DNA of 64,000 bases from Vermamoeba vermiformis (lineage: Eukaryota): positions 186,001 through 250,000 of the forward strand of contig JBEWZL010000056.1 of NCBI GenBank assembly GCA_045837725.1, read 5' to 3'. Shown here one piece after another: positions 11,624 through 59,907 of this stretch. The first letter of the stretch is position 1. The number at the start of each line of letters is the position of its first letter. Below the pieces are notes generated by a model that saw only the letters and a list, made by a program, of their open reading frames with translations, made no database searches and was not told the DNA's origin. The translations under genes and the position numbers were made by a program.

Positions 11624-14600
11624 ATGGAGAAGAACTCAAGAGAGATTGACGATGTGCAAACGTTTCAAGAAAGTTTTGGTATGGATTGGTTATTCTGATC
11701 ATCTGACATTAGCGGCAAATACGCGACGAAGAGGCTCAAATCTGATCGAAATTTATTTGCAAATTGATTCCTTTTTGCCTAATCCAGATTTAACCACTTT
11801 CTTAATATTCTAAATAATATTTTTTAATTTTTAAAAATATTGTACAGCCCTTCTGCGCCTGTGGTGTAAGAAACGAAAATATGATGACGCCCTGAATCTG
11901 CTCAACGATATGCTGCGTTTTGATCCCAAAAATCACATGCTATTGGATCGTAAAGGCATTATTCTAGTCAAGCAAGGTAACCATCGTACTAAATTGCATA
12001 TTAAATTCAATTTCGAACTCAATCGAACCCAGCAATAAATTTCTTTCGGAGTGAACGCCGATTCGATATAATGCGTTCTAATGGAGCCCAATTGTATTTA
12101 GGCAAGTATCAACCAGCTCTTGCGTGTTTTGAGGCTGCGATCAAGCTTAATCCGCAGCATCTCGACGCTTGGAACAATAAGGCTGTAGCGTTGGCAGAAT
12201 CGGGAAATTCCCGCGAAGCGTTGGTAGTAATTGACCAAGCATTAACTATGGCGATACCCAACCCCTCAGTAGAGGTCAAGCACCGCATGGCTAAGATCTA
12301 CATGAACAAAGGCAACATTTTATTTACTCAAGGACGCGTAGAAGAGGCAATAACGTGTTACAATAACGCCATCGAGCTTCATAAGGACTATGCATCTGCT
12401 TGGACCAGCAAGGGCTTCGCGTTGGATAATATGGGTAAGTAGTAGATTTGCTGGTTTTTCAGCGAACGGAAATTTGGATTGATTATTACAAAAATTTAAT
12501 CAAAATTTTTTTTTCGATGAATATCTTCGTTCATTGTCGGTTAATGATATCTTCCTCGAGGAATTCAACAATTCTAATTCAAATTTGTACAGGCCAGTAT
12601 GAAGAGGCTATAAAGTGCTTTCATTCCGCGCTTATGATAAACAAAGACCTAGCAAAGATGCACACAAACAAGGGGCTCGAAGCATTTAGGCAAAAGAAGT
12701 ATACTGAAGCTGTTTATCATTACGATAAGGCGTTGGATGTGGATCCAGGAGTCTCAGAAATTCTACTACATAAAGGTAAGATCGGGTAGCAACGACCAAT
12801 ATAGATAGTACTCGACTAATCAATGACCATAGGCGATGCTTTGTTAGCAAAGACGCGAGACAAAGAGGCTGTAACAGCGTACTACTTCGCGTTCAGCAGC
12901 GAGGTGAATAAGGTACTTGGAACGAACAATCCGAGCAACAGAAAGAGTGGCGTAGAGCGAAGTAACAAAACAGGTATGCTCGGATCTGTATTAGAAATTT
13001 AGACTCTTGGACCTTGGGTCGAATTCGGATTTGGCTGAAAAGTTTTTCTGGCCTGATCTACTTACGCAATGGTCATTAAAATCATTTTTATATAGGTGCT
13101 CGAGCAGAGGACCGCTTTCAGTTTGTTTCTCGGCTTGGCAAAGGCGTTGCCAAGGTGCATCTCGTAAAAGAGAAAGATGATCCGACAGGAACAATTAAAG
13201 TGCTTAAGAAGATTGAGTATAGCTATTTACCCGTTAATGTTAACAACGCCCGTCGTGAGGTAATATTTAAAGCTCAAAATAGAAATATTTTGAATTATTA
13301 GTTCATTAACGGATCCAATTCAAAGGCATTGTATGCTACCCGCTTTGAGCATCGTAATCTTGTCAAGACCTACGACTGCTGGTATGAGTTCTCCGAGGCA
13401 TCGAGCGGCAGCACTTCTCCGACTAAACGACGAACTAATGCAAAAGGATCCGGCTCACCGGCAAACGTCGCATTGCAAAAGTTTTCCGTTTATATTCTGA
13501 TGGAGTACTGCGAAAAGGGTGATCTAGGCGCTCCTAAGAAGCGAGACGAAGACGTAAGCGTGATTTTACATTTATTGTATATTTTAAACCCGTGGTGTGA
13601 ATCCAGTCGCGTGCTAATTAGGTATTTTTTTTTGGTTAGGACATTCGACTAATTTTGGAACAAGCGTTGGAGGCACTCCACTATTTACACGGAGTTCATA
13701 AAGTGGTCCACAGGGATATAAAACCAGACAATTTTTTCTTAACGAAAAATGATGTGCTAAAATTAGGTAACCAATTAATTGATTCTTGCAATTGTGATAA
13801 CTGACGTGATTTCGCAAGGTGACTATGGAAGCTCTGTTAAAATAGCACAAGCTCAAGGTTTGTGTGGTACTCCAGGTTATCAAGCACCTGAAACCCTCGA
13901 TCTGTAAGTTAGCATTGCGTTTATTTTTCATCAAGCTAAAATTAGTTGGATTACACGAACGATTGCAATACTAACTCAATATACTAGGAGGATGAAATAT
14001 GACGAGAAGGTCGATATCTTCTCGCTTGGCATTTGCTTGAGCGAACTTGCCACGGGATTGCCAATAAAGGTAATTTTAATACGCACGTCATCATGGCGTG
14101 GCCCGGAGTTAATTTATTGCTTTTGTTAGGACCTCGTTAGCGAACACTTCAGCGTGATGCTATTAGAGAATAACATATCAAACATGAGGCTCGTTGAAGC
14201 TCCTCAGATGGCGGTATGGATTTGGGATTGGTCTCCACGGTTGAGCATGATTTTAATCTTACCTTCCCTGATAGGATGTATCGCCGGCACTTAAAGATTT
14301 GATAGAGATGATGACGCGGCGAGATCCGAAACTACGACCGTCCTATATGGAAATCAAAAATCATCCGTTTTTGACCAAGAAAGGTGACTGTCAAATAATT
14401 CACAAAACGGCCGTTTTTCAAAAACGATTTAACTAATTCATTGAACGACCTGTGACGTGGAACCACGACTGACTTTCTATTTTTAGACTACTCATTGACA
14501 CTATTTGCGAAGATTTCAAAGCACTTGGGCTCGAATAGCAAAGATCTTATGGCAATCATCGAGCATATATTAATGAAACTAATCAAAACTCGTAAGATCA

Positions 14601-16665
14601 AGTTAATCTCGTTGCAAGATTGAAATTTAAGCGTCTATTAATAGCTTTATACCCGCGCAAAATTCGATCGTCAGGATTAGCCAAGGAACTGGAGTCCCGC
14701 TCATATGGAAGCAAAGAGATACAACGCATTTTAGAGGCACTTTCAATAGGTAAAGAACTTAACTTTTGTTTTCGTGTCAAATCTTTTATGACGCAAAACT
14801 AGAAATTTTTTGACGCGCGATGGTGAACAATCTTTAACTAACTTTATTTAAAGAGGAAAAATCTCGCGTGACCGTCAGAAAACCCAGATCCAAGCCTTCG
14901 ACATTGCGATTCCCTTTAGAGAAGAGCGAGTCGTTCTCGCTCATTCTATCCGTGACGCATCCGGATCCCGGCTTTGACACATTGCACAAGTTCGTGAACC
15001 GAAAGCGAGGCACGATTAATCTACAGGACCAAGCCGAGGTTCATTTCGAGTTCCCGAGCGAAGTAGTATCAAACCTGTTGCCTTATCTGTCTTTTAAGGA
15101 CATATGCAAATTGGGACGAATTTCCAAGGCACTATATATAGCAAGGTATGCATATTTATAGTTGAAACAAAATGACCAAATCCAACTTGAAACTTGGCTT
15201 AAAATTTAAGGGAAATAATTAGGCGAGGTTGTCGGAGATTTTCCCAAAATTGGATTTTCCCGCACTACGTTGTGCCGAAATCTGCATGATAGCGACTTTA
15301 CTAATTACACATCATGATTAGCGTTGACGAAATCGTTTGGGAGAATTTGTTCTACAATGATTTTGTTGAAACAGCAGCGGTGAAAGTTGCGCCAAAAGAA
15401 TTAGACGAAATAATCGCAAAGTTTGAGGCATGGAAGAATACCGCTAAGGACGATACTGAAAGATATTGGAAAGATGCTTACAAGAGGTACGCAACTTTTG
15501 AATTAATTGTGCCAAGTTGACAAAATGCAATGACAAACAAGCAAGTGGCGTGTACCTTGGCGTTACTTGTTGTTGGCACCGCCAATCTTTTTTAAGTTAG
15601 TTTTTAACTCTTTTTAGGGAGTTTCTAAAACGAGCCAAGTCCCTCGTTGTAGCTACAAACACCAACGACAGGGTCATCAAGACGGGCATCAGTTTCTTGT
15701 TACAGCGACAAGAATCATTTCGGTGGAACCAATTTCAGACCAAATTCATTTTGCTTGGCTCGACGAGCGTGGGAAAAACGACTTTAGTTAAGGCGTTCAC
15801 GGGAGATACTCGGCGAGGTACCGCTCACTATAAAACTTAATGTGAATTTTTCGGCACAAAGTTTTTCCAAAGCTTTGTCACAAAAAACGAATTGACATTT
15901 TTGACACGAACGGCCTTTGTTATCGGATAATTCGAAATCTAATACAATCATTTTACTTTTAGATAATTTTTCACAAGCTACGCACTTTTACGGCAAGGAA
16001 ATCAAAGTGACGAGCGGATCTGGCGAAGAAATTCAACTTGGAGTGCGTATTATCGACTTAATTGGCTCGCGTAGATATGATTTTATGAGGTATAATAACA
16101 TTACAGCATAGTAGTAGTAGTCTAACAACTTTTGCTTTTTCACCAGGCGGGATCTGATCAGCCAGTCGCAAGGCTTCGTGCTCATGTTTGATATTACAAA
16201 TAAGAGCAGCTTTGATGAGATCATAGACATGGTCGGAGAAATTCAGAAGATCAAAGAAGCAGGGCCGCAGTACCATTGCGTGCTCGTCGGGTAAGTTCAA
16301 CCCGAAATTTTAACAGAAATATTCGCGTCTAAAAGTAGCCATATACAATAGAAATTCATAAATAGGCAAAGAATTGATACTGATGCTGATCTTATTTAGA
16401 GCGAAGGCGGATCTGGCTCGCGAACGTGAAGTGAGTTACGAGGAGGGATTAGGACTGGCTAAAACTCTGTTCTATCCGTACATCGAGATCAGGTATGCAA
16501 GCATATTATATATTGAGCATAGTATCATAATCTAATTGAGTTTTCAGTGCTAAAGAAGGTCGCGGAGTGGAAGATCCGTTTTTGATTTTGACGCGCAATG
16601 TTTTGCAGTTGAATGACGAGCCGAATTCAAAGAGCTCGCAACGCAAAGGATGTTCAATAATGTAA
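11624..16665 (+). CDS. TPR + Ser/Thr kinase + F-box + Ras-like GTPase (CaaX) multidomain protein; alternatively two adjacent genes split near 14436/14549
   Basis: TPRs at 11850-12900. Kinase: LGKGVAKV, VLKK, MEYCEKGDL, HRDIKPDN, DYG, GTPGYQAPE, DIFSLG, DPKLRPS. F-box: FPSEVVSNLLPYLSFKDICKLGRISK. GTPase: GSTSVGKT, FVLMFDIT, AKAD, SAK, C-terminal CSIM*. All splice phases are compatible. Confidence 0.75.
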
Positions 16666-20176: not shown

Positions 20177-25012
<4,836 letters not shown>

Positions 25013-35387: not shown

Positions 35388-36702
35388 ATGAGCTATTACA
35401 ACAATAAGATCCCCAATGATATTACTATCACTGTCGTCCAAGGATTGAACAATGAAAGGCTTGACGTCCTCCTAAGCAAATCTGAGCTAAAAATTCCTCG
35501 ATCTCAAGCTTCACGGCTGATAGAAGCTGGAAGAGTGTTAGTCAATGATAGTCCTCCTACTAAAAATTATAAGGTAATTATATTTAATTATTTTGTATTT
35601 TTACACGCACGATCCATTGAAAAAACTGCGTGATTCCCTTTTAAAGCTATGAACATGTATTAACATATTACCCAGTCGAAAATAGACGATAAAATATTAA
35701 TAAAAAAAGATCCAACGCAAAACGAAGCAGAACCCAAGACAGATCCTGATCCCAAACCAGAAAATAGCGAAAACAAATACGAACTGCTTAATGGAATCGT
35801 GGAACCGATAGAAATGGATATTAAAATTGTATATGAAGATGATCATATACTCGTTGTAGATAAGGGTATGTCTAACGAACCAATTTTTATCCATGAAGAT
35901 CCGATCCGTAACTTTTCTCAAATAGAGGCTGGTATTTCAGTACATCCTAGTGTTACTCCGATCAAACCTAAAAATACTAAGAATAATAATAACAAGAATA
36001 ATGAAGAACACGAGAAAGAAAGGTGTTTGGTGAACGGACTTGTACATAAATACGGATCCGACAAATTATCAAATTTTGAAGGTAACTTATAAGACTGACA
36101 TTATTATTCTAATATGTAATAACTCTAATATTATATTAGGCACGCTAAGGCCAGGTATTGTCCATCGATTAGACAAAGAAACTTCGGGGTTGATTATTAT
36201 TTGCAAGAACAACGAAGTGCACAAACTGTTGAAAGAGAAATTCGAAAATAAGACAATCTCGAAGAAATATTGGACGATAGTATACGGAAAATTACCGAAT
36301 ACTGAAGGCGTGATCGAGGAGCCGATCGGCCGACATCCGAAAATAGGTTACAAGATGGCTGTTGATAAAGTTAAAGGCAAGCCAGCGAAGACGTCATATA
36401 AACAACTGCAACAATGGCGACTGAAGAATGGTTCCTATTACACAATGCTAGAAATTGATCTGCATACCGGTCGAACGCACCAGATTCGAGTTCATTTGTC
36501 ATCGAAAGCTTGCTCAGTAGTATCAGATCCTATATATAGTCACAAGAGCGAGAAATTCCACCCAGATCATTTGTGTCTCGTATCTAAGCAGTTGTCGTTT
36601 GTACATCCGATTACGAATAACGAGATCAAGCTTGAAGTTGATTTACCGAGGCACATGCAAGACTTTATTGATTACCTAAATAAAAATGAAGTTAAGCAGT
36701 AA
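35388..36702 (+). CDS. RluA/RluD-family pseudouridine synthase with an S4 domain
   Basis: RLDVLL..RSQASRLI (S4), VYEDDHILVVDKEAGISVHP, RPGIVHRLDKETSG, LHTGRTHQIRVHL. Confidence 0.95.
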
Positions 36703-43677: not shown

Positions 43678-44141
43678 TAATTAAAAGATGCTATATAAGC
43701 CTTAAATAAGGACAATTACACCGATTAACGTCTTTACCTTATTCCGCTTTGGATCAAAAAAAAACTTGCCAAATCCAGCGCGCAGAACAACAAATTAAGG
43801 ATGAAGCAATAATGGACAATATCAGCATTAGCAATAATATCGCGATTAGAAATATCTGCAGAAAAGTTGTTCTCAAAGAAACACTGCCCGTAGAATCTTC
43901 GGATGTCTTCGGAACACGCGAAAAAAAAAAAAAACAGAACCATATTCATTAATGTTGCCATATTTTAGAAGCAAAAGCACTTCACTATAACGATTAGACA
44001 CTAACGGTAAGTTGAAACTCAGATTCTGCTCCGAAGTAGTCCTGCCAGTATTTTAATAAATTAACATAATTATCAGTCCAATAATCTTAACAATATTATT
44101 ATACTGCAAGCGCTTAACAATAAAATTAGATTCAGACCACT

Positions 44142-45923
44142 ATGGATCAGGTTCCTTCAGAAATTCAAAAAATCATAGTCTCCTTTATGGATCACAACAC
44201 GAAGCTTAATTTCCGAGCAACGAGCACGCATTGGTTTAAATTTATCGATTATAGAGATTTTTCGCTCTATTTTACGCGCGAGTCAGATTTACCAGCAATA
44301 GCAAACCGTCTTGCGCAATACACGGCACCTATATCGCTCTCATTCAACAAACAATACGAAGCTTTCAAATTTGATGCATTCGCGGAGCATTTTACGAAGC
44401 TGACATCATTAACTGGATTAGATCTGCCCAGATTCCATATCGTGTCCATGGTAGAGGATAGCGGAAAAGAATATTTGATATTATCAACTCTTAGTAATCT
44501 GAAAAGTCTAAGAAATCTGGATAATCGCATTGGGACCAAAGGATACGATATCACAAACGTCGGCAAAAATTTCAGCAATTTAACTTCACTTCAAGTTTTG
44601 CGTGTGCAATTAGTATATGGCCGCCGAATACCATCGATGGAAGCTGCAGCGCCAATCATTCGACAAAATCCAAACCTCATTGAACTCGATCTAACTGTCA
44701 GCAAGGCTATTGTGGATCAGCACTTTGTCGACATGTTCACCAACCACAGCAAGCTCACAAAGCTCTCAATTGCTGCTGATCGAATAGACTACCGCGCCTG
44801 CAATGCGTACAGCGTCTTCAGCAACTTGAAGGAGTTGAATATTGGAAGTGGGGGACACTACGCTATCAATTTGCCAATCGATGAAGGGACCGTGGGACAG
44901 CTGACTAATTTGGAGAGCCTTTATCTACATTCTCAATCACCCTTAGTTAATCTCAGCAGATTAGTGAATCTAACAAAGTTGCATGTGATCAACGCATCCG
45001 GCTTCGAAGATGGGTGGTCCAAATGTTTCGAGTCCTTCTCGGCCTTGAACAAACTAAAGCACGTGTCGCTAGCTCTGCAAGAATGCGATACAAAATACGA
45101 ATTTTTGAGCGCGTTCACGGCACTTGAAAGGCTTTCTATGTACCGCAATGCCTACCAGCCCAAGCAATCCCTCTTTCTGCACATCCGCTCAACACACTTG
45201 ACAAAACTTGATATTGAGTCGTCATCAGAGCTTAATTATTCTGAAGGACACTTTCAGTCACTAAGCAATGTGCAGAAGCTGCGTCTGGTAGTCGCACAAG
45301 CCATTGACAACACAGCTCTTGAGACACTACTTGGCTCGATGCGACACTTGACAAAACTGACCTACAAGTCTAAGGAAAGCAACGGTGACGAACTGGCTGT
45401 CTTTGAAAAGCTCTCGAGCTTGCGCGTGCTCGTGTATCATTACAACGACGACCCAGGGAATGCAAGAAAGATTGGTCTCGCGCAACTGACACTACTCGAG
45501 CGCCTCAAAGTCAACGATGTGGTTGAGCTGACTGATTTGCAGTACTGTCCGCACTTGACAGCTCTTCACTGCGGTACCAACACTAAGCCCGGCAATGACT
45601 ATAAGTACCTAGCCTCGCTGCCTTTGAAATCTTTGCACTTTCCTCGCTTACGCCCAGACAATCAGCTCTTGCACGCGATTGGTCAGCTGACTAATCTTGA
45701 AAGTTTGCTACTGACCGAAGCTGAAGACGAGCATTTCTTGCAATTGAGTCGATTAGTCAACCTGACCAAACTAGTCGTGCAGAGATCACCAAAATTTACT
45801 GGCGCGACTCTGGGCCCGATGACTGCCTTGCAAGAACTAGATTCGGCAAATGTCTCAAAACCGGACCTCAGTCCAGCCCAAGACCTCAATTTGCCTTACT
45901 TGTACAGAGTAAATAGGATGTAA
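44142..45923 (+). CDS. F-box/leucine-rich repeat protein; intronless, 593 aa
   Basis: MDQVPSEIQKIIVSFM..FRATSTHW (F-box) followed by many LTxLxxLxL repeats. Confidence 0.88.
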   Translation: MDQVPSEIQKIIVSFMDHNTKLNFRATSTHWFKFIDYRDFSLYFTRESDLPAIANRLAQYTAPISLSFNKQYEAFKFDAFAEHFTKLTSLTGLDLPRFHIVSMVEDSGKEYLILSTLSNLKSLRNLDNRIGTKGYDITNVGKNFSNLTSLQVLRVQLVYGRRIPSMEAAAPIIRQNPNLIELDLTVSKAIVDQHFVDMFTNHSKLTKLSIAADRIDYRACNAYSVFSNLKELNIGSGGHYAINLPIDEGTVGQLTNLESLYLHSQSPLVNLSRLVNLTKLHVINASGFEDGWSKCFESFSALNKLKHVSLALQECDTKYEFLSAFTALERLSMYRNAYQPKQSLFLHIRSTHLTKLDIESSSELNYSEGHFQSLSNVQKLRLVVAQAIDNTALETLLGSMRHLTKLTYKSKESNGDELAVFEKLSSLRVLVYHYNDDPGNARKIGLAQLTLLERLKVNDVVELTDLQYCPHLTALHCGTNTKPGNDYKYLASLPLKSLHFPRLRPDNQLLHAIGQLTNLESLLLTEAEDEHFLQLSRLVNLTKLVVQRSPKFTGATLGPMTALQELDSANVSKPDLSPAQDLNLPYLYRVNRM

Positions 45924-51553: not shown

Positions 51554-54535
51554 ATGGCTAAAAGAAAAATAAAAGATATCTCCACCCACGAAGAAGGACC
51601 AGAGACCAAGAAAATCAAGCTGGATGAGGTAAAATAATTTTTTGCGAAAATACTCTACATTTATTTTAGAAAATCAACGCCATTTAGTATTATCGTTAGC
51701 TGCTATAAAAATTAATTTTGATTTTTAACTCTTCTTGGAAAGGTAACCCTAGAACCACATCCACAATGCTCTTTCTCCGCCCTGCCATTGGAGATCATCA
51801 GCGAATATATTTTCAAATATTTCGACTTCCAGAAGTGCCTCGAATTACTCGTCCTCGTTTGCAAACAGTGGCATCTGGCAGCACAAGTGTCAACCATGCA
51901 CAAACAGCTCGTAGTGCACATATTAGACAATATGGACTCTATAGGCTCCGTATTATCAACGTATGGCGTGAACACGTTAATACTAAATCCAACTAACAAG
52001 GAGGCTACTTTACGAGATTTGGCTCAGATGCTGAATGCGGTGCCGAAACTGACAACACTAGTGTGCAAGGCCGGTAGTGCCATAAGCCACGAAATAGAAG
52101 GTGCTCGATATTCAAAGGCACCACAAGACAATGAATCTACTTTCGAGCATATCAAAACGCTGTCCGTCGCTCAGCTCAAGACTATGCAGCTGCTAACAAA
52201 ATTCCCAAACCTCACTCAACTCAAAATAGAATCGTTGTGGACGGCGTACAGCACATATAGACCACCAGCTAAAGTCGTGTACCCAACTGTGACCGAACTG
52301 GAACTGAACGCCCAGCACGGCTCGGCATTGGAAAGCATCACAGATAGTTTTCCAGGCTTGAAGACGCTATTTGTCAATGACATGGGCGGCACTGTTGCGC
52401 TACGATTTCTTGATGCAATCACCGAGAATCACGGCGTTAAAGTTATTTTGAATCGAGATCCACATAACTTGACGGCCCTGTCGTACGTCGATTACTTCAA
52501 TGCCTGTGGACGTACTCCGTTGCAGTATTTTATCGAAAAAAAGGACAATAATAAGGTCAAGGAAGTACTAACAAAGTATACTAATGAAACATACGAACGA
52601 GACCTGCTCATGCGCCAACCACAGTTCAAATTTCCAACGAGACACACGTACTTTCAGTCCCATACTTCTGAAGTCAAAAAGTCCTCGCTGTCAAATGAAA
52701 TGATCTTCACGTTAGTCGAGAATGGTGGTCTCGGTTATTGGAGTGCCCTGTACTTGATTTCAGACGTCGGCACAGTAAAGAAGACTCTGATGTTGGCCAA
52801 TCAGCATCGACCTGTGCCCTCCGAGGCCCTCAAAGCAATGGCAAAACTGAATTGTCACCTATCAGTACCTGTCAATCAAATAGCAGACCTCGTTGGCGAA
52901 GACACGTTCAAAGAAATCGCGACAGTTAGAGACAACCAAGGCAACACGCTGCTGCACTTACTGGCGCGCAAAAGCGCCAACTTGCCGGTGTACTGGGACC
53001 ATGTGATTCCTTACAGCGACATTCACGCGCTCAACAATAAGCAAGAGAACGCAGCAACGATTGCTTTTCATGCCAGACATTGGATGTGTTGGCAAATGCT
53101 AGTAGAACAAGGTACTGCAATCCAACAAGAAAAGTACATACAAGATCTCGCGAGCACGAGACATTTGTTGACGTGGATCTTGAACACTGCAACGTCGTTT
53201 AGAATTATGAAGTACTTCAAGGAGTCCAGCAGCTATCTGCAGACCATGTTCTTCGAGTTACAACACTTAACTTCCCCACGAAAACACTTTCTATTTAGAA
53301 AACTGATCAAGCTCGGAGTTGACCCAAAGCAATACAACCACCACGGACAATCGCTGCTCAATACCTTGGTCGAACAGACTGCCAATACGTTGATAGAAGA
53401 ATGGGACTGCATTGCTGAATGTGATCTCAACTTGGACGAGCGTGACAGCAGTGGCAGAACGCCACTCATTACCGCGATTAAACTTGGCTTGCTCAAAAAG
53501 GCCAAGTTTCTGCTAGAGAAGGGCGCTAATCCAAACATACATGGCATTACGGCACGTGGCAACAAGATCTATCCTGTGCAATTAGCTCAAACAGTCACGG
53601 ATGATAACGTGATAAACTTACTTGCAGCGCACGGTGCAGACTTCACAATTGAAGACAAAGATGGAAACACGATCATCAACGCAGCTATTACCAAGCACAA
53701 GTTCGTCGACGTCAAAGCTCTAGCTGCACTCGTCTCCATCAACAAACCCAACAAGCACAACATGACACCTCTCGCACAATCCATCTGCATTGCTGATTTG
53801 ACCAAAGTCGAAGCGTGCCTGGCAAGCGGAGCGGATGTCAATCAACTCGCGGGACCACTGCTGCAATCTCCGTTGTTGCTAGCTCTAGAAGCAGATGAGC
53901 AAGCCATTGTGCGGTGTCTTTTGGCAACAGGACGAGTCGACGTGACGCTGAAAGATAAAGCTGGTCGATCATTCATCAATTACTTGCTTCGAACAGAGCC
54001 GCTATGGGAAATTAGTACGCGTCAATGGATGATCAACGATGACTTTAATTCTAACTTTTTATTAGGCCCCGAGATATTAGCGATTATTCCAATCCATTAC
54101 GCGACGCCAAAGAACATTTCATTCGTCAAAACTGAAGTTGAAGCAATTCTCAAGACACCAGAGACATCACACTTTGCCACGAAGATTCTCAAGTTTGCTA
54201 CGAATGATATCACCTTTACGAAGTTCTTCATCGAAGTACTTGGCATTAACGCTAATATTGAGGACTCTAATGGCGACACGATGCTCTCGCTGATCGAATT
54301 TCACGCACGCAAGTCACCTCTAGTAATTGACTTTCTCGTGTCACGTGGTGCAAATGTCAATCATCAGAACAAGCAAAAGAACACGCCATTGATGAAGGCA
54401 ATGGATATTATCGCACGTGACAAAGACGATGAACATGTGCGAGTGCTGCTGAGGAATGGTGCATCCGTCGAACTCAAAAACATTTGGGGTCTTGCTCCCA
54501 TTGACATCGAGCCAACAATCATGAATAAGAAATAA
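51554..54535 (+). CDS. F-box + LRR-like + ankyrin-repeat protein; one intron, then a 2.8-kb exon
   Basis: Exon 1 MAKRKIKD..KKIKLDE is NLS-like. LPLEIISEYIFKYF..LVCKQW is the F-box. Ankyrin motifs: GNTLLHL, GRTPLITA, GANPN, GANVN. Confidence 0.9.
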
Positions 54536-59271: not shown

Positions 59272-59434
59272 GGCGCAGACGTGCGCGAGCGCAACATCCG
59301 CACTAACAAAAATTGTGACAGGGACAACACCATACGGTGAAGCCCAACCGATGTCGCACTCCGAGTGCAAGAGGAGCGCAACGACCGACCTAGAGATGCC
59401 TTCTTGATCACATCTCTACTGTCTAGGTAAGTAT
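59272..59434 (-). ncRNA. U1: U1 snRNA
   Basis: 5' AUACUUACCU; helix H GACAG/CUGUC; SL1 UAGAGAUG..GAUCAAGAAG..CAUCUCUA; SL2 loop UUGCAC; Sm site AAUUUUUG; 3' stem-loop; about 163 nt. Confidence 0.97.
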
Positions 59435-59765: not shown

Positions 59766-59907
59766 GGAACCCATTAATAGGGTGTTCCAGAAATTGGGCC
59801 ACGGCGGTGCCGAAGCCCACTGCTTAGGGAATGTAGTTTTCAACTAGCAATAACTTCGAATCTGCCGAAACATCATGTTCCGAAGTAACCGCCCCAAGCG
59901 CAAGGAT
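59766..59907 (-). ncRNA. U4: U4 snRNA
   Basis: 5' AUCCUUGCGCUUGGGGC; 5' stem-loop with k-turn AUGA..GA; conserved UUAUUGCUAGUUGAAAAC; Sm site AAUUUCUGG; 3' hairpin; about 142 nt. Confidence 0.95.

What the first reader, a model, noticed from the sequence alone, without database searches (positions are those of the whole stretch)
11624..16665. TPR-kinase-F-box-Ras(CaaX) four-domain protein in one spliced reading frame
Seen: after the kinase ends (IKNHPFLTKK), phase-1 introns at 14384-14486, 14592-14644 and 14750-14853 join stop-free exons (DYSLTLFAKISKHLGSNSKDLMAII.., PLYPRKIRSSGLAKELES.., EEKSRVTVRKP..) straight into the F-box. The frame then runs into a Ras domain ending RKGCSIM*. Established: F-boxes recruit SKP1/SCF, CaaX directs prenylation, and Roco proteins combine GTPase and kinase in the opposite order. 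Inference: a membrane-anchored, GTPase-coupled phosphorylate-and-ubiquitinate module. I do not recognise this architecture.
Basis: partly seen in the sequence, partly recalled or inferred. Interest (0 to 1): 0.82.

Follow-up and report, generated by a model that had tools for sequence, protein, structure and literature searches.

The report
One gene: TPR-kinase-F-box-like-Ras protein
A kinase gene and the neighbouring F-box-like/Ras-like gene in an unnamed eukaryote are most likely one spliced gene, which puts a kinase, a probable ubiquitin-ligase adaptor and a membrane-anchored GTPase in a single protein.

Summary
Splicing 20 GT..AG introns joins 11624-16665 (+) into one stop-free frame of 1022 codons. 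The three critical introns (14384-14486, 14592-14644, 14750-14853) are all phase 1.

No read crosses 14383->14487. The case for one gene is comparative. A related metagenome contig, L001, keeps every exon length and splice site. Both 105-nt linker exons differ from it almost only at third codon positions (3/0/14 and 6/0/23), including the 62 nt upstream of ATG 14549. The flanking introns are only 48-65% identical.

Neither candidate start codon of a separate second gene is kept in both relatives. ATG 14549 is TTA in another relative's RNA reads. ATG 14573 is TTG in L001.

TPR, protein kinase and Ras-family matches pass Pfam cut-offs on single exons. The F-box match is split by an intron and stays below cut-off. 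The GTPase looks atypical and ends in CSIM.

The F-box-then-GTPase order has a precedent in TbFRP of Euglenozoa (PMC3593210). I judge this a new variant of a known kind. Single gene about 0.85; the mechanism is inferred only.

The parts
11624..11678 (+). Exon 1 with the start codon ATG 11624
   Evidence: model. The X1 spliced contig joint 11677->11847 has 99 letters on its shorter side, so the transcript reaches to about 11580.
11848..12973 (+). Four TPR exons (11848-11976, 12102-12434, 12593-12775, 12833-12973), all symmetric phase 1-1
   Evidence: Pfam TPR_1 scores 73.1 bits (cut-off 27.8) with 3 stretches in exon 12102-12434, and 52.2 bits with 2 stretches in exon 12593-12775. All introns between them are confirmed by X1 contig joints.
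13096..14383 (+). Seven protein-kinase exons (13096-13259, 13326-13553, 13640-13766, 13819-13903, 13988-14069, 14130-14213, 14275-14383), ending in phase 1 at a GT donor
   Evidence: Pkinase PF00069 matches are collinear on profile positions 100-139 (40.5 bits, cut-off 31.7), 141-169, 173-195 and 232-263 of 263. The motifs HRDIKPDN, DYG and APE are present. X1 joints confirm 5 of the 6 internal introns; 13554-13639 was not seen.
14384..14486 (+). Critical phase-1 intron between the kinase and linker exon 1 (103 nt; GTGACT...TTTTAG, with CTGAC 14 nt before the AG)
   Evidence: It is 60% identical to L001, 94 nt long there, with indels. The read-through tails of the two sequences are unrelated and stop at different places. 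There is no ATG in 14384-14548. No read spans it.
14487..14591 (+). Linker exon 1 (105 nt, phase 1-1), no family match
   Evidence: Ungapped against L001. Differences by codon position 1/2/3 are 3/0/14, with 13 synonymous and 3 non-synonymous codons. The first 62 nt, upstream of ATG 14549, give 2/0/6. X9 reads show ATG 14549 as TTA amid synonymous changes.
14592..14644 (+). Phase-1 intron, 53 nt
   Evidence: 48.5% identical to L001 and 68 nt long there. Four X9 reads end at 14591 and continue with letters like the exon starting at 14645 (table 7).
14645..14749 (+). Linker exon 2 (105 nt, phase 1-1), no family match
   Evidence: Ungapped against L001. Differences are 6/0/23, with 22 synonymous and 3 non-synonymous codons. 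No Pfam match.
14750..14853 (+). Phase-1 intron, 104 nt
   Evidence: 65% identical to L001 and 88 nt long there, with a GC donor in L001. Not seen in reads.
14854..15145 (+). Exon with a conserved region of unknown family, followed by the first two thirds of an F-box-like domain (about 15051-15143)
   Evidence: 95% amino-acid identity to L001. F-box-like PF12937 scores 19.9 bits and F-box PF00646 17.6 bits, on profile positions 5-32 and 3-32, ending at the exon end.
15322..15486 (+). Exon with the presumed end of the F-box and a helical-looking spacer
   Evidence: Intron 15146-15321 is confirmed by an X1 contig joint. The exon has no Pfam match of its own.
15618..16665 (+). Five exons of a Ras-family-like small GTPase (15618-15817, 15963-16089, 16147-16290, 16400-16492, 16548-16665), with CaaX C-S-I-M at 16651-16662 and stop at 16663-16665
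   Evidence: Ras PF00071 matches on profile positions 1-22, 69-109 (26.1 bits, cut-off 21.6) and 113-141 of 162. The P-loop exon is closest to Rab12 in the PDB, E 0.056. The switch-region exon 15965-16087 has no GTPase match. X1 joints confirm introns 15487-15617, 15818-15962 and 16090-16146.

Best explanation
11624-16665 (+) is one gene of 21 exons. It encodes a protein of about 1022 residues with these parts, in order:
- about six TPR repeats;
- a Ser/Thr-type protein kinase with intact catalytic motifs;
- a conserved 70-residue linker of no known family, made of two symmetric 105-nt exons;
- a further conserved stretch;
- an F-box-like domain;
- a spacer;
- a divergent Ras/Rab-like GTPase ending in a farnesylation-type CaaX box (CSIM).

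Shown here: the gene structure, by comparison with relatives, and the domain content.

Inferred: the CaaX box holds the protein on a membrane. The F-box-like segment binds Skp1 and so links the polypeptide to a cullin-1 ligase. The GTPase sits where the substrate-receptor domain of an F-box protein normally sits. By the standard Ras motif alignment (numbering recalled), it has Thr and Ser at the Gly12/Gly13 places, Ser at the Gln61 place and AKAD in place of NKxD. It is therefore likely a slow or non-hydrolysing, mostly GTP-bound module that serves as a docking or gating surface and not as a fast switch. The TPR-kinase half then either delivers and phosphorylates clients for the ligase, or is itself the part whose level is set by F-box-dependent turnover.
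For: Gene structure:
- (a) There is one stop-free spliced frame, with all 20 introns GT..AG.
- (b) L001 is a related contig with 95% amino-acid identity over the F-box exon. It covers ten exons, from the second kinase exon (only its last 81 nt) to exon 15322-15486. All 10 are ungapped and of equal length. Of 10 donors, 8 are GT and 2 are GC. All 9 acceptors are AG. Six of 8 introns differ in length, and intron identity is 48-73%.
- (c) Codon differences over those ten exons are 168 synonymous to 37 non-synonymous. The linker exons give 13:3 and 22:3.
- (d) The 62 nt of linker exon 1 upstream of ATG 14549 are 87% identical, against 60% for the adjoining intron (Fisher p = 2e-4). Six of their 8 differences are at third positions (p = 0.02). 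So the exon is coding from the acceptor onwards, in the phase left open by the kinase exon.
- (e) There is no ATG in 14384-14548. In L001 an in-frame stop lies 10 codons upstream of the acceptor.
- (f) ATG 14549 reads TTA in relative D's RNA (table 7). ATG 14573 reads TTG in L001. Neither candidate start codon for a separate gene is therefore kept in both relatives.
- (g) The read-through tails after the kinase are unrelated between the window and L001, so they are not coding.
- (h) X1 spliced contigs confirm 14 of the 20 introns. Relative D's RNA reads cover kinase, linker, F-box and GTPase exons, and 28 of the 37 listed differences are synonymous.

Domains: Pfam; motifs.

Precedents for the logic: TbFRP (PMC3593210) and F-box or BTB fusions to ARF GTPases.
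Against: - No read or contig spans 14383->14487 or 14749->14854. X1 has zero depth over 14344-14895, so the fusion transcript itself was never seen.
- There is only one relative with DNA across the junction (L001). The third-position test on the decisive 62 nt rests on 8 differences.
- The window and L001 both keep ATG 14549, so a second-gene start there is not excluded for them.
- The F-box match is below both Pfam cut-offs. phmmer against the PDB found no F-box protein.
- A profile I built from the window's other F-box family did not score.
- The GTPase switch-region exon matches no GTPase, so nucleotide binding is not assured.
- Nothing tests Skp1 binding, prenylation, kinase activity or GTP binding.
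Confidence: 0.75

Rival explanations
1. There are two adjacent genes. A TPR-kinase gene ends at the unspliced stop 14434-14436. A separate F-box-Ras gene has its own transcription start (or a trans-spliced leader at acceptor 14486/14487) and starts translation at ATG 14549 or 14573.
For: No read joins 14383 to 14487, and X1 contigs break between the two halves. ATG 14549 is present in both the window and L001.
Against: The 62 nt upstream of ATG 14549 behave as coding sequence, in the frame and phase handed over by the kinase exon: 2/0/6 differences by codon position, no indels, and a sharp drop of identity exactly at the AG. ATG 14549 is TTA in relative D and ATG 14573 is TTG in L001. There is no ATG in 14384-14548. 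The supposed C-terminal tail of the kinase is not conserved. The GT donor right after the last conserved kinase codon is kept in L001.
Confidence: 0.1
2. Both forms exist. The fused mRNA is made, but alternative polyadenylation inside intron 14384-14486, or an internal promoter, also gives a stand-alone TPR-kinase and/or a stand-alone F-box-Ras protein.
For: Nothing direct. The symmetric phase 1-1 exons and the break in X1 contigs are compatible with it. Both in-frame ATGs exist in the window.
Against: No reads lie in 14344-14527 in any of the four runs laid, although coverage is very low. Conservation of frame across the junction shows that the fused product is under selection.
Confidence: 0.15
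3. It is one gene, but the F-box-like segment is not a working F-box. The protein would then be a prenylated TPR-kinase scaffold with an atypical GTPase and no link to ubiquitination.
For: The F-box scores are below the Pfam cut-offs. There were no F-box hits in the PDB by sequence. My own profile gave no support.
Against: Two independent Pfam F-box models match the same 28-30 residues, from profile position 3-5 up to the point where the exon ends (E 6e-4 and 4e-3 for one protein against the whole library). The L001 copy gives the same result. The next exon begins with a stretch that contains a Trp, at the place where I recall F-boxes carrying a conserved Trp (consensus recalled, not tested).
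Confidence: 0.2

Closest known systems
TbFRP of Trypanosoma brucei and other Euglenozoa (FYVE - F-box - Ras-like GTPase; PMC3593210, passages read)
   Same: An F-box is followed by a C-terminal Ras/Rab-like GTPase in one polypeptide, with a different N-terminal module and a device for membrane targeting.
   Different: [quoted passage not shown] It ends in VLLD without a CaaX box and uses FYVE/PI3P for membrane binding. The protein here has TPR plus kinase upstream and a CSIM end. The sequences were not compared here, so homology of the F-box-GTPase halves is untested.
Roco proteins (LRRK2, Dictyostelium Roco kinases): Roc GTPase - COR - kinase (from my own knowledge)
   Same: A Ras-superfamily GTPase and a protein kinase sit in one polypeptide, often with repeat domains.
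   Different: The order is reversed here (kinase first). No COR domain matched in any exon. The GTPase is C-terminal and carries a CaaX box. An F-box-like segment lies between the kinase and the GTPase.
RhoBTB and TRIM23/ARD1, and lineage-specific ARF-family GTPases fused to BTB or F-box (10.1101/2020.10.31.363457, one passage read; RhoBTB and TRIM23 details recalled)
   Same: A small GTPase domain is fused to a ubiquitin-ligase or cullin-adaptor module. RhoBTB's GTPase is also atypical (recalled).
   Different: Those use BTB (cullin-3) or RING, or an ARF-type GTPase. None carries a kinase.
Prenylated F-box proteins FBXL2 (mammals) and Rcy1 (yeast)
   Same: An F-box protein is anchored to membranes by a C-terminal CaaX box.
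   Different: Their substrate-binding parts are LRR or Sec10-like regions, not a GTPase, and they have no kinase.

Membership tests
Protein kinase (Pfam PF00069) | Match to the kinase profile at or above the gathering score | tested here: met
   Exon 13640-13765 alone scores 40.5 bits against a cut-off of 31.7. Three further exons match collinear profile positions 141-169, 173-195 and 232-263.
Protein kinase (Pfam PF00069) | Catalytic residues: beta-3 Lys, alpha-C Glu, HRDxKxxN, DFG Asp, APE (consensus recalled) | tested here: met
   HRDIKPDN, DYG (Asp kept) and APE are read in the spliced protein. A Lys in VLKK and a Glu in ARRE are plausible. The Gly-rich loop is GKGVAK and lacks the third Gly, so it is atypical. 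Activity was not tested.
TPR repeats (PF00515 and relatives) | Repeated 34-residue TPR matches above the cut-off | tested here: met
   TPR_1 scores 73.1 bits (3 stretches) and 52.2 bits (2 stretches) against a cut-off of 27.8.
F-box (PF00646 / PF12937) | Profile match at or above the gathering score | tested here: inconclusive
   19.9 bits against 24.3, and 17.6 against 20.5. Only profile positions 5-32 of 47 and 3-32 of 43 are matched, because intron 15146-15321 cuts the domain. The spliced protein could not be submitted to the tool. The PDB sequence search found no F-box protein.
F-box (PF00646 / PF12937) | Binds Skp1 | not testable with these tools
   The domain is split over two exons, and joined sequences are not accepted by the folding or complex tools.
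Ras-family small GTPase (PF00071) | Profile match at or above the gathering score | tested here: met
   Exon 16148-16288 scores 26.1 bits against a cut-off of 21.6. The P-loop exon (positions 1-22) and exon 16401-16490 (positions 113-141) match collinearly but weakly. The exon for positions about 25-68 has no match.
Ras-family small GTPase (PF00071) | G1 GxxxxGK[ST], G3 DxxG, G4 NKxD, G5 SAK, catalytic Gln (consensus recalled) | tested here: not met
   G1 (GSTSVGKT), G3 (DLIG) and G5 (SAK) are present. G4 is AKAD, so the Asn is missing. Ser stands at the Gln61 place, and Thr and Ser at the Gly12/13 places. The set of motifs is therefore only partly met: this is an atypical member.
CaaX-prenylated proteins | Cys four residues from the C-terminus followed by two aliphatic-type residues and X | tested here: met
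   C-S-I-M followed by the stop, at 16651-16665. That X = Met directs farnesylation is recalled. The modification itself is not testable here.
Roco proteins | Roc GTPase directly followed by a COR domain, with the kinase C-terminal to them | tested here: not met
   No COR match in any of the 20 exon pieces scanned. The GTPase is C-terminal to the kinase.
TbFRP-type F-box GTPases | N-terminal FYVE domain, central F-box, C-terminal GTPase, no CaaX (PMC3593210) | tested here: not met
   No FYVE match in any exon, and a CaaX box is present. The F-box-then-GTPase order is shared. The sequences were not compared.

The most novel reading that the evidence does not exclude
A self-contained, membrane-anchored 'mark and destroy' enzyme. 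The TPR array captures a client. The kinase on the same chain writes the phosphodegron. The F-box recruits Skp1-cullin-1 to ubiquitinate the client. The farnesylated, hydrolysis-impaired Ras-like domain confines or gates the whole reaction at a membrane. The result would be a cullin-1 counterpart of RhoBTB with its own built-in kinase.
Probability: 0.15. Interest if true: 0.75.

Novelty: new variant of a known kind. Interest (0 to 1): 0.45.

Why it matters
If the fusion is real, a kinase, an SCF adaptor and a lipid-anchored GTPase are held in a fixed one-to-one ratio in a single chain. This would be a natural experiment in how phosphorylation, ubiquitination and GTPase-type membrane targeting can be wired together. 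It would also be a second, independent case beside TbFRP of a GTPase taking the substrate-receptor position of an F-box protein. In addition, it shows that a gene caller working on this compact genome could easily split the gene. The organism's proteins are absent from the large protein collections searched, so the lineage is poorly sampled. The practical weight is modest: one lineage-restricted gene, with an untested mechanism.

Tried and rejected
- RNA runs: no RNA holder listed. The runs laid gave no read over 14383->14487.
- No whole genome is held for the window.
- Protein searches with the F-box exon: the word-index search for longer proteins gave 0 of 52 candidates.
- Exhaustive phmmer over 1.84 billion representatives gave 5 hits. 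Only P0001 is a relative: 140 aa, 93% identical, an ORF from a metagenome contig that reads on into the intron. P0002-P0005 are repetitive bacterial surface proteins (SpaA_4 and DUF7507 repeats), whose scores add up over repeats, so I rejected them as spurious.
- A 40-aa stretch around linker exon 1, searched against longer proteins, gave 0 of 11 candidates.
- Scans of genome contigs and viral contigs with the F-box exon gave 0 relatives.
- Cluster look-up of P0007 and P0001 gave no names, so no hint of the lineage.
- F-box tests. phmmer of the 96-aa exon against the PDB gave one chance-level match (PilT, E 0.75). The 37-aa F-box part gave 0.
- I built a profile from the N-termini of the window's other F-box family (14 sequences, P0006-P0019). 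It scored -1.2 bits on the spliced protein. Its only aligned stretch fell on residues 705-722, the proposed F-box start, but without significance.
- GTPase switch exon against the PDB: 3 chance matches, none a GTPase.
- Internal repeat between the two 35-residue linker exons: 74 of 2000 shuffles reached the observed score, so it is not convincing.
- Paralogues in the window: tblastn of the spliced protein found only the gene itself.
- Literature searches found no paper describing a TPR-kinase-F-box-GTPase protein. Supplements were not seen.
- A joint 15145->15381 (GT..GG) in relative D's reads is probably a lay artefact at a diverged exon start, not an alternative intron.


Full report
**What is in the sequence.** The region lies in a eukaryotic window (39.7% G+C) with short GT..AG introns. 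From ATG 11624 I could join 21 exons through 20 GT..AG introns of 52-176 nt. They form one stop-free frame of 3069 nt (1022 codons) that ends at TAA 16663-16665.

The last kinase exon ends at 14383 in phase 1 before a GT. Unspliced, the frame stops at 14434-14436. The introns 14384-14486, 14592-14644 and 14750-14853 are phase 1. They enclose two exons of exactly 105 nt each. A stop-free path of this kind is not rare by chance, so the observation needed outside evidence.

**RNA evidence (the only lay allowed).** Run X1 had 6 of 7 laid pieces at least 99% alike. Its contigs skip GT..AG introns, so they stem from spliced RNA. They confirm 14 of the 20 introns: ten in the TPR-kinase half and four in the F-box-Ras half.

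X1 has no depth at all between 14344 and 14895. The three critical introns are therefore not covered, and this hole is evidence neither for nor against.

Runs X7-X9 are raw RNA reads of a relative (organism D, 90-95% alike) and are thin (10, 9 and 40 reads laid). They fall on kinase, linker, F-box and GTPase exons. Four X9 reads end at 14591 and continue with letters that resemble the exon starting at 14645, so intron 14592-14644 is removed in that relative. The 18 loose letters before 14561 differ from the window at four third positions, and they also turn ATG 14549 into TTA (Met to Leu). Of the 37 differences listed for these reads, 27 are at third codon positions and 28 are synonymous. No read joins 14383 to 14487.

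**Comparative evidence.** One scan of metagenome contigs with the 96-residue F-box exon found one relative, L001 (1944 nt, 95% amino-acid identity). It spans from the second kinase exon (only its last 81 nt) to the exon 15322-15486.
- All ten exons align without gaps and with equal length.
- Donors are GT in 8 and GC in 2 of 10. All 9 acceptors are AG.
- Six of the 8 complete introns differ in length, and they are only 48-73% identical.
- Across the ten exons there are 168 synonymous and 37 non-synonymous codon differences.

The two linker exons behave like the best-conserved coding exons. Differences by codon position 1/2/3 are 3/0/14 and 6/0/23, with 13:3 and 22:3 synonymous to non-synonymous codons. 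The binomial p for third-position excess is 5e-5 and 5e-7.

The decisive stretch is the 62 nt between the acceptor at 14486/14487 and ATG 14549.
- It is 87% identical, against 60% for the adjoining intron (Fisher p = 2e-4).
- It has no indel.
- Six of its 8 differences are at third positions (p = 0.02).
- The split codon at the junction changes synonymously (GAC in the window, GAT in L001).

Conservation starts exactly at the AG and stops exactly at the GT after the last kinase codon. The 17- and 16-residue read-through tails of the two sequences are unrelated.

There is no ATG between 14384 and 14548. In L001 an in-frame stop lies ten codons upstream of the acceptor. ATG 14549 is TTA in organism D, and ATG 14573 is TTG in L001. 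So neither start codon that a separate second gene would need is kept in both relatives.

Linker exon 1 is therefore an internal coding exon in phase 1. The only upstream exon it can continue is the kinase's last one. I put the single-gene reading at about 0.85. The two-gene reading, including a trans-spliced or operon-like variant, gets about 0.1. Co-existing shorter isoforms are not excluded.

- TPR: TPR_1 scores 73.1 and 52.2 bits (cut-off 27.8), about six repeats in all.
- Kinase: Pkinase matches in four exons, collinear on the profile (100-139, 141-169, 173-195, 232-263), one of them above the cut-off alone (40.5 against 31.7). HRDIKPDN, DYG and APE are present. The glycine loop lacks its third Gly.
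- F-box: F-box-like scores 19.9 bits (cut-off 24.3) and F-box 17.6 bits (cut-off 20.5), on profile positions 5-32 and 3-32, ending where intron 15146-15321 cuts the domain. The L001 copy gives the same result. That intron is confirmed by an X1 contig. Sequence searches of the PDB found no F-box protein, and a home-made profile gave nothing. I hold the F-box as probable (about 0.8), not shown.
- GTPase: Ras-family matches in three exons, collinear (1-22, 69-109, 113-141 of 162), one above the cut-off (26.1 against 21.6). The P-loop exon is closest to Rab12 (E 0.056). The exon that should hold switch I and II matches no GTPase.
- GTPase motifs, by the standard alignment (numbering recalled): the P-loop is GSTSVGKT, G3 is DLIG followed by Ser at the place of the catalytic Gln, G4 is AKAD and not NKxD, and G5 is SAK. 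The end is C-S-I-M.
- Linker: the 70-residue linker and the 60 residues before the F-box match no family.

**How it probably works (inferred).** The CaaX end should be farnesylated and hold the protein on a membrane. The GTPase has substitutions at the places of Gly12, Gly13 and Gln61. In Ras these substitutions block hydrolysis (recalled). It is therefore likely a mostly GTP-bound docking module and not a fast switch.

The GTPase stands where an F-box protein normally carries its substrate receptor. The F-box would bring in Skp1 and cullin-1. The TPR-kinase half either brings and phosphorylates clients for that ligase, or is itself the cargo whose level the F-box controls. Rapid turnover was proposed for TbFRP (PMC3593210, discussion passage). 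None of this was testable here.

**Comparison with what is known.** The order F-box then Ras-like GTPase is described for TbFRP, a FYVE - F-box - GTPase protein restricted to Euglenozoa. TbFRP lacks a CaaX box and binds membranes through FYVE (PMC3593210, passages read). A survey of the ARF family notes lineage-specific fusions of ARF-type GTPases to BTB or F-box domains (10.1101/2020.10.31.363457, one passage). RhoBTB, TRIM23, FBXL2, Rcy1 and the Roco kinases are further partial analogues, recalled and not checked here.

The gene is not a Roco member: no COR match, and the order is reversed. It is not a TbFRP-type protein either: no FYVE, and a CaaX box is present. Four full-text searches found no description of a TPR-kinase joined to an F-box-GTPase module. 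Supplements were closed.

No protein with this exon content exists in the collections searched, apart from one metagenome ORF fragment. So the lineage is poorly sampled, and I cannot say how widespread the architecture is.

**Verdict.** The F-box is probable. The mechanism is inference. This is a new variant of known kinds of multidomain GTPase/ubiquitin-adaptor and GTPase/kinase proteins, of moderate interest.

Noticed in passing
window 59274-59434 (-) and 59769-59907 (-): U1 (74.6 bits) and U4 (82.8 bits) spliceosomal snRNA genes lie about 330 nt apart on the same strand (Rfam). No tRNA gene was found in the whole window.
   Followed up: no
window 44130-45920 (+): An intron-free ORF of about 593 residues has a weak N-terminal F-box (20.1 bits, cut-off 20.5) and an LRR_14 region. 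It has 13 relatives, all unnamed, from metagenome, Logan, ENA and NCBI sources. The closest is 96% identical (P0007). This is a second, conventional F-box protein in the same window.
   Followed up: partly
L001 546-551 and 1232-1237 (equivalent to window 14070 and 14750): Two introns have GC donors (GCAAGT) in the relative where the window has GT. GC-AG introns are therefore in use in this lineage.
   Followed up: no
window 11848-12973 and 14487-14749: All four TPR exons and both 105-nt linker exons are symmetric phase 1-1. This is the pattern expected of modules moved by exon shuffling, and it allows exon skipping without a frame shift.
   Followed up: no
window 15145->15381: Relative D's RNA reads (1 in X8, 3 in X9) give a joint that skips 235 nt with GT..GG ends, where X1 shows the 176-nt GT..AG intron. 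It is probably a lay artefact at a diverged exon start, but a different acceptor in the relative is not excluded.
   Followed up: no
window 51722-54532 (+), 36034-36699 (+), 23516-24148 (+): Long open frames with ankyrin repeats (Ank_2, 79 bits), a pseudouridine synthase domain (100 bits) and a weak ABC-transporter membrane-region match.
   Followed up: no
proteins P0002-P0005: Repetitive bacterial surface proteins reached E values down to 1e-7 against a 96-residue eukaryotic exon, only because short chance matches add up over 4-6 repeats. This is a trap when reading hit lists from that tool.
   Followed up: yes
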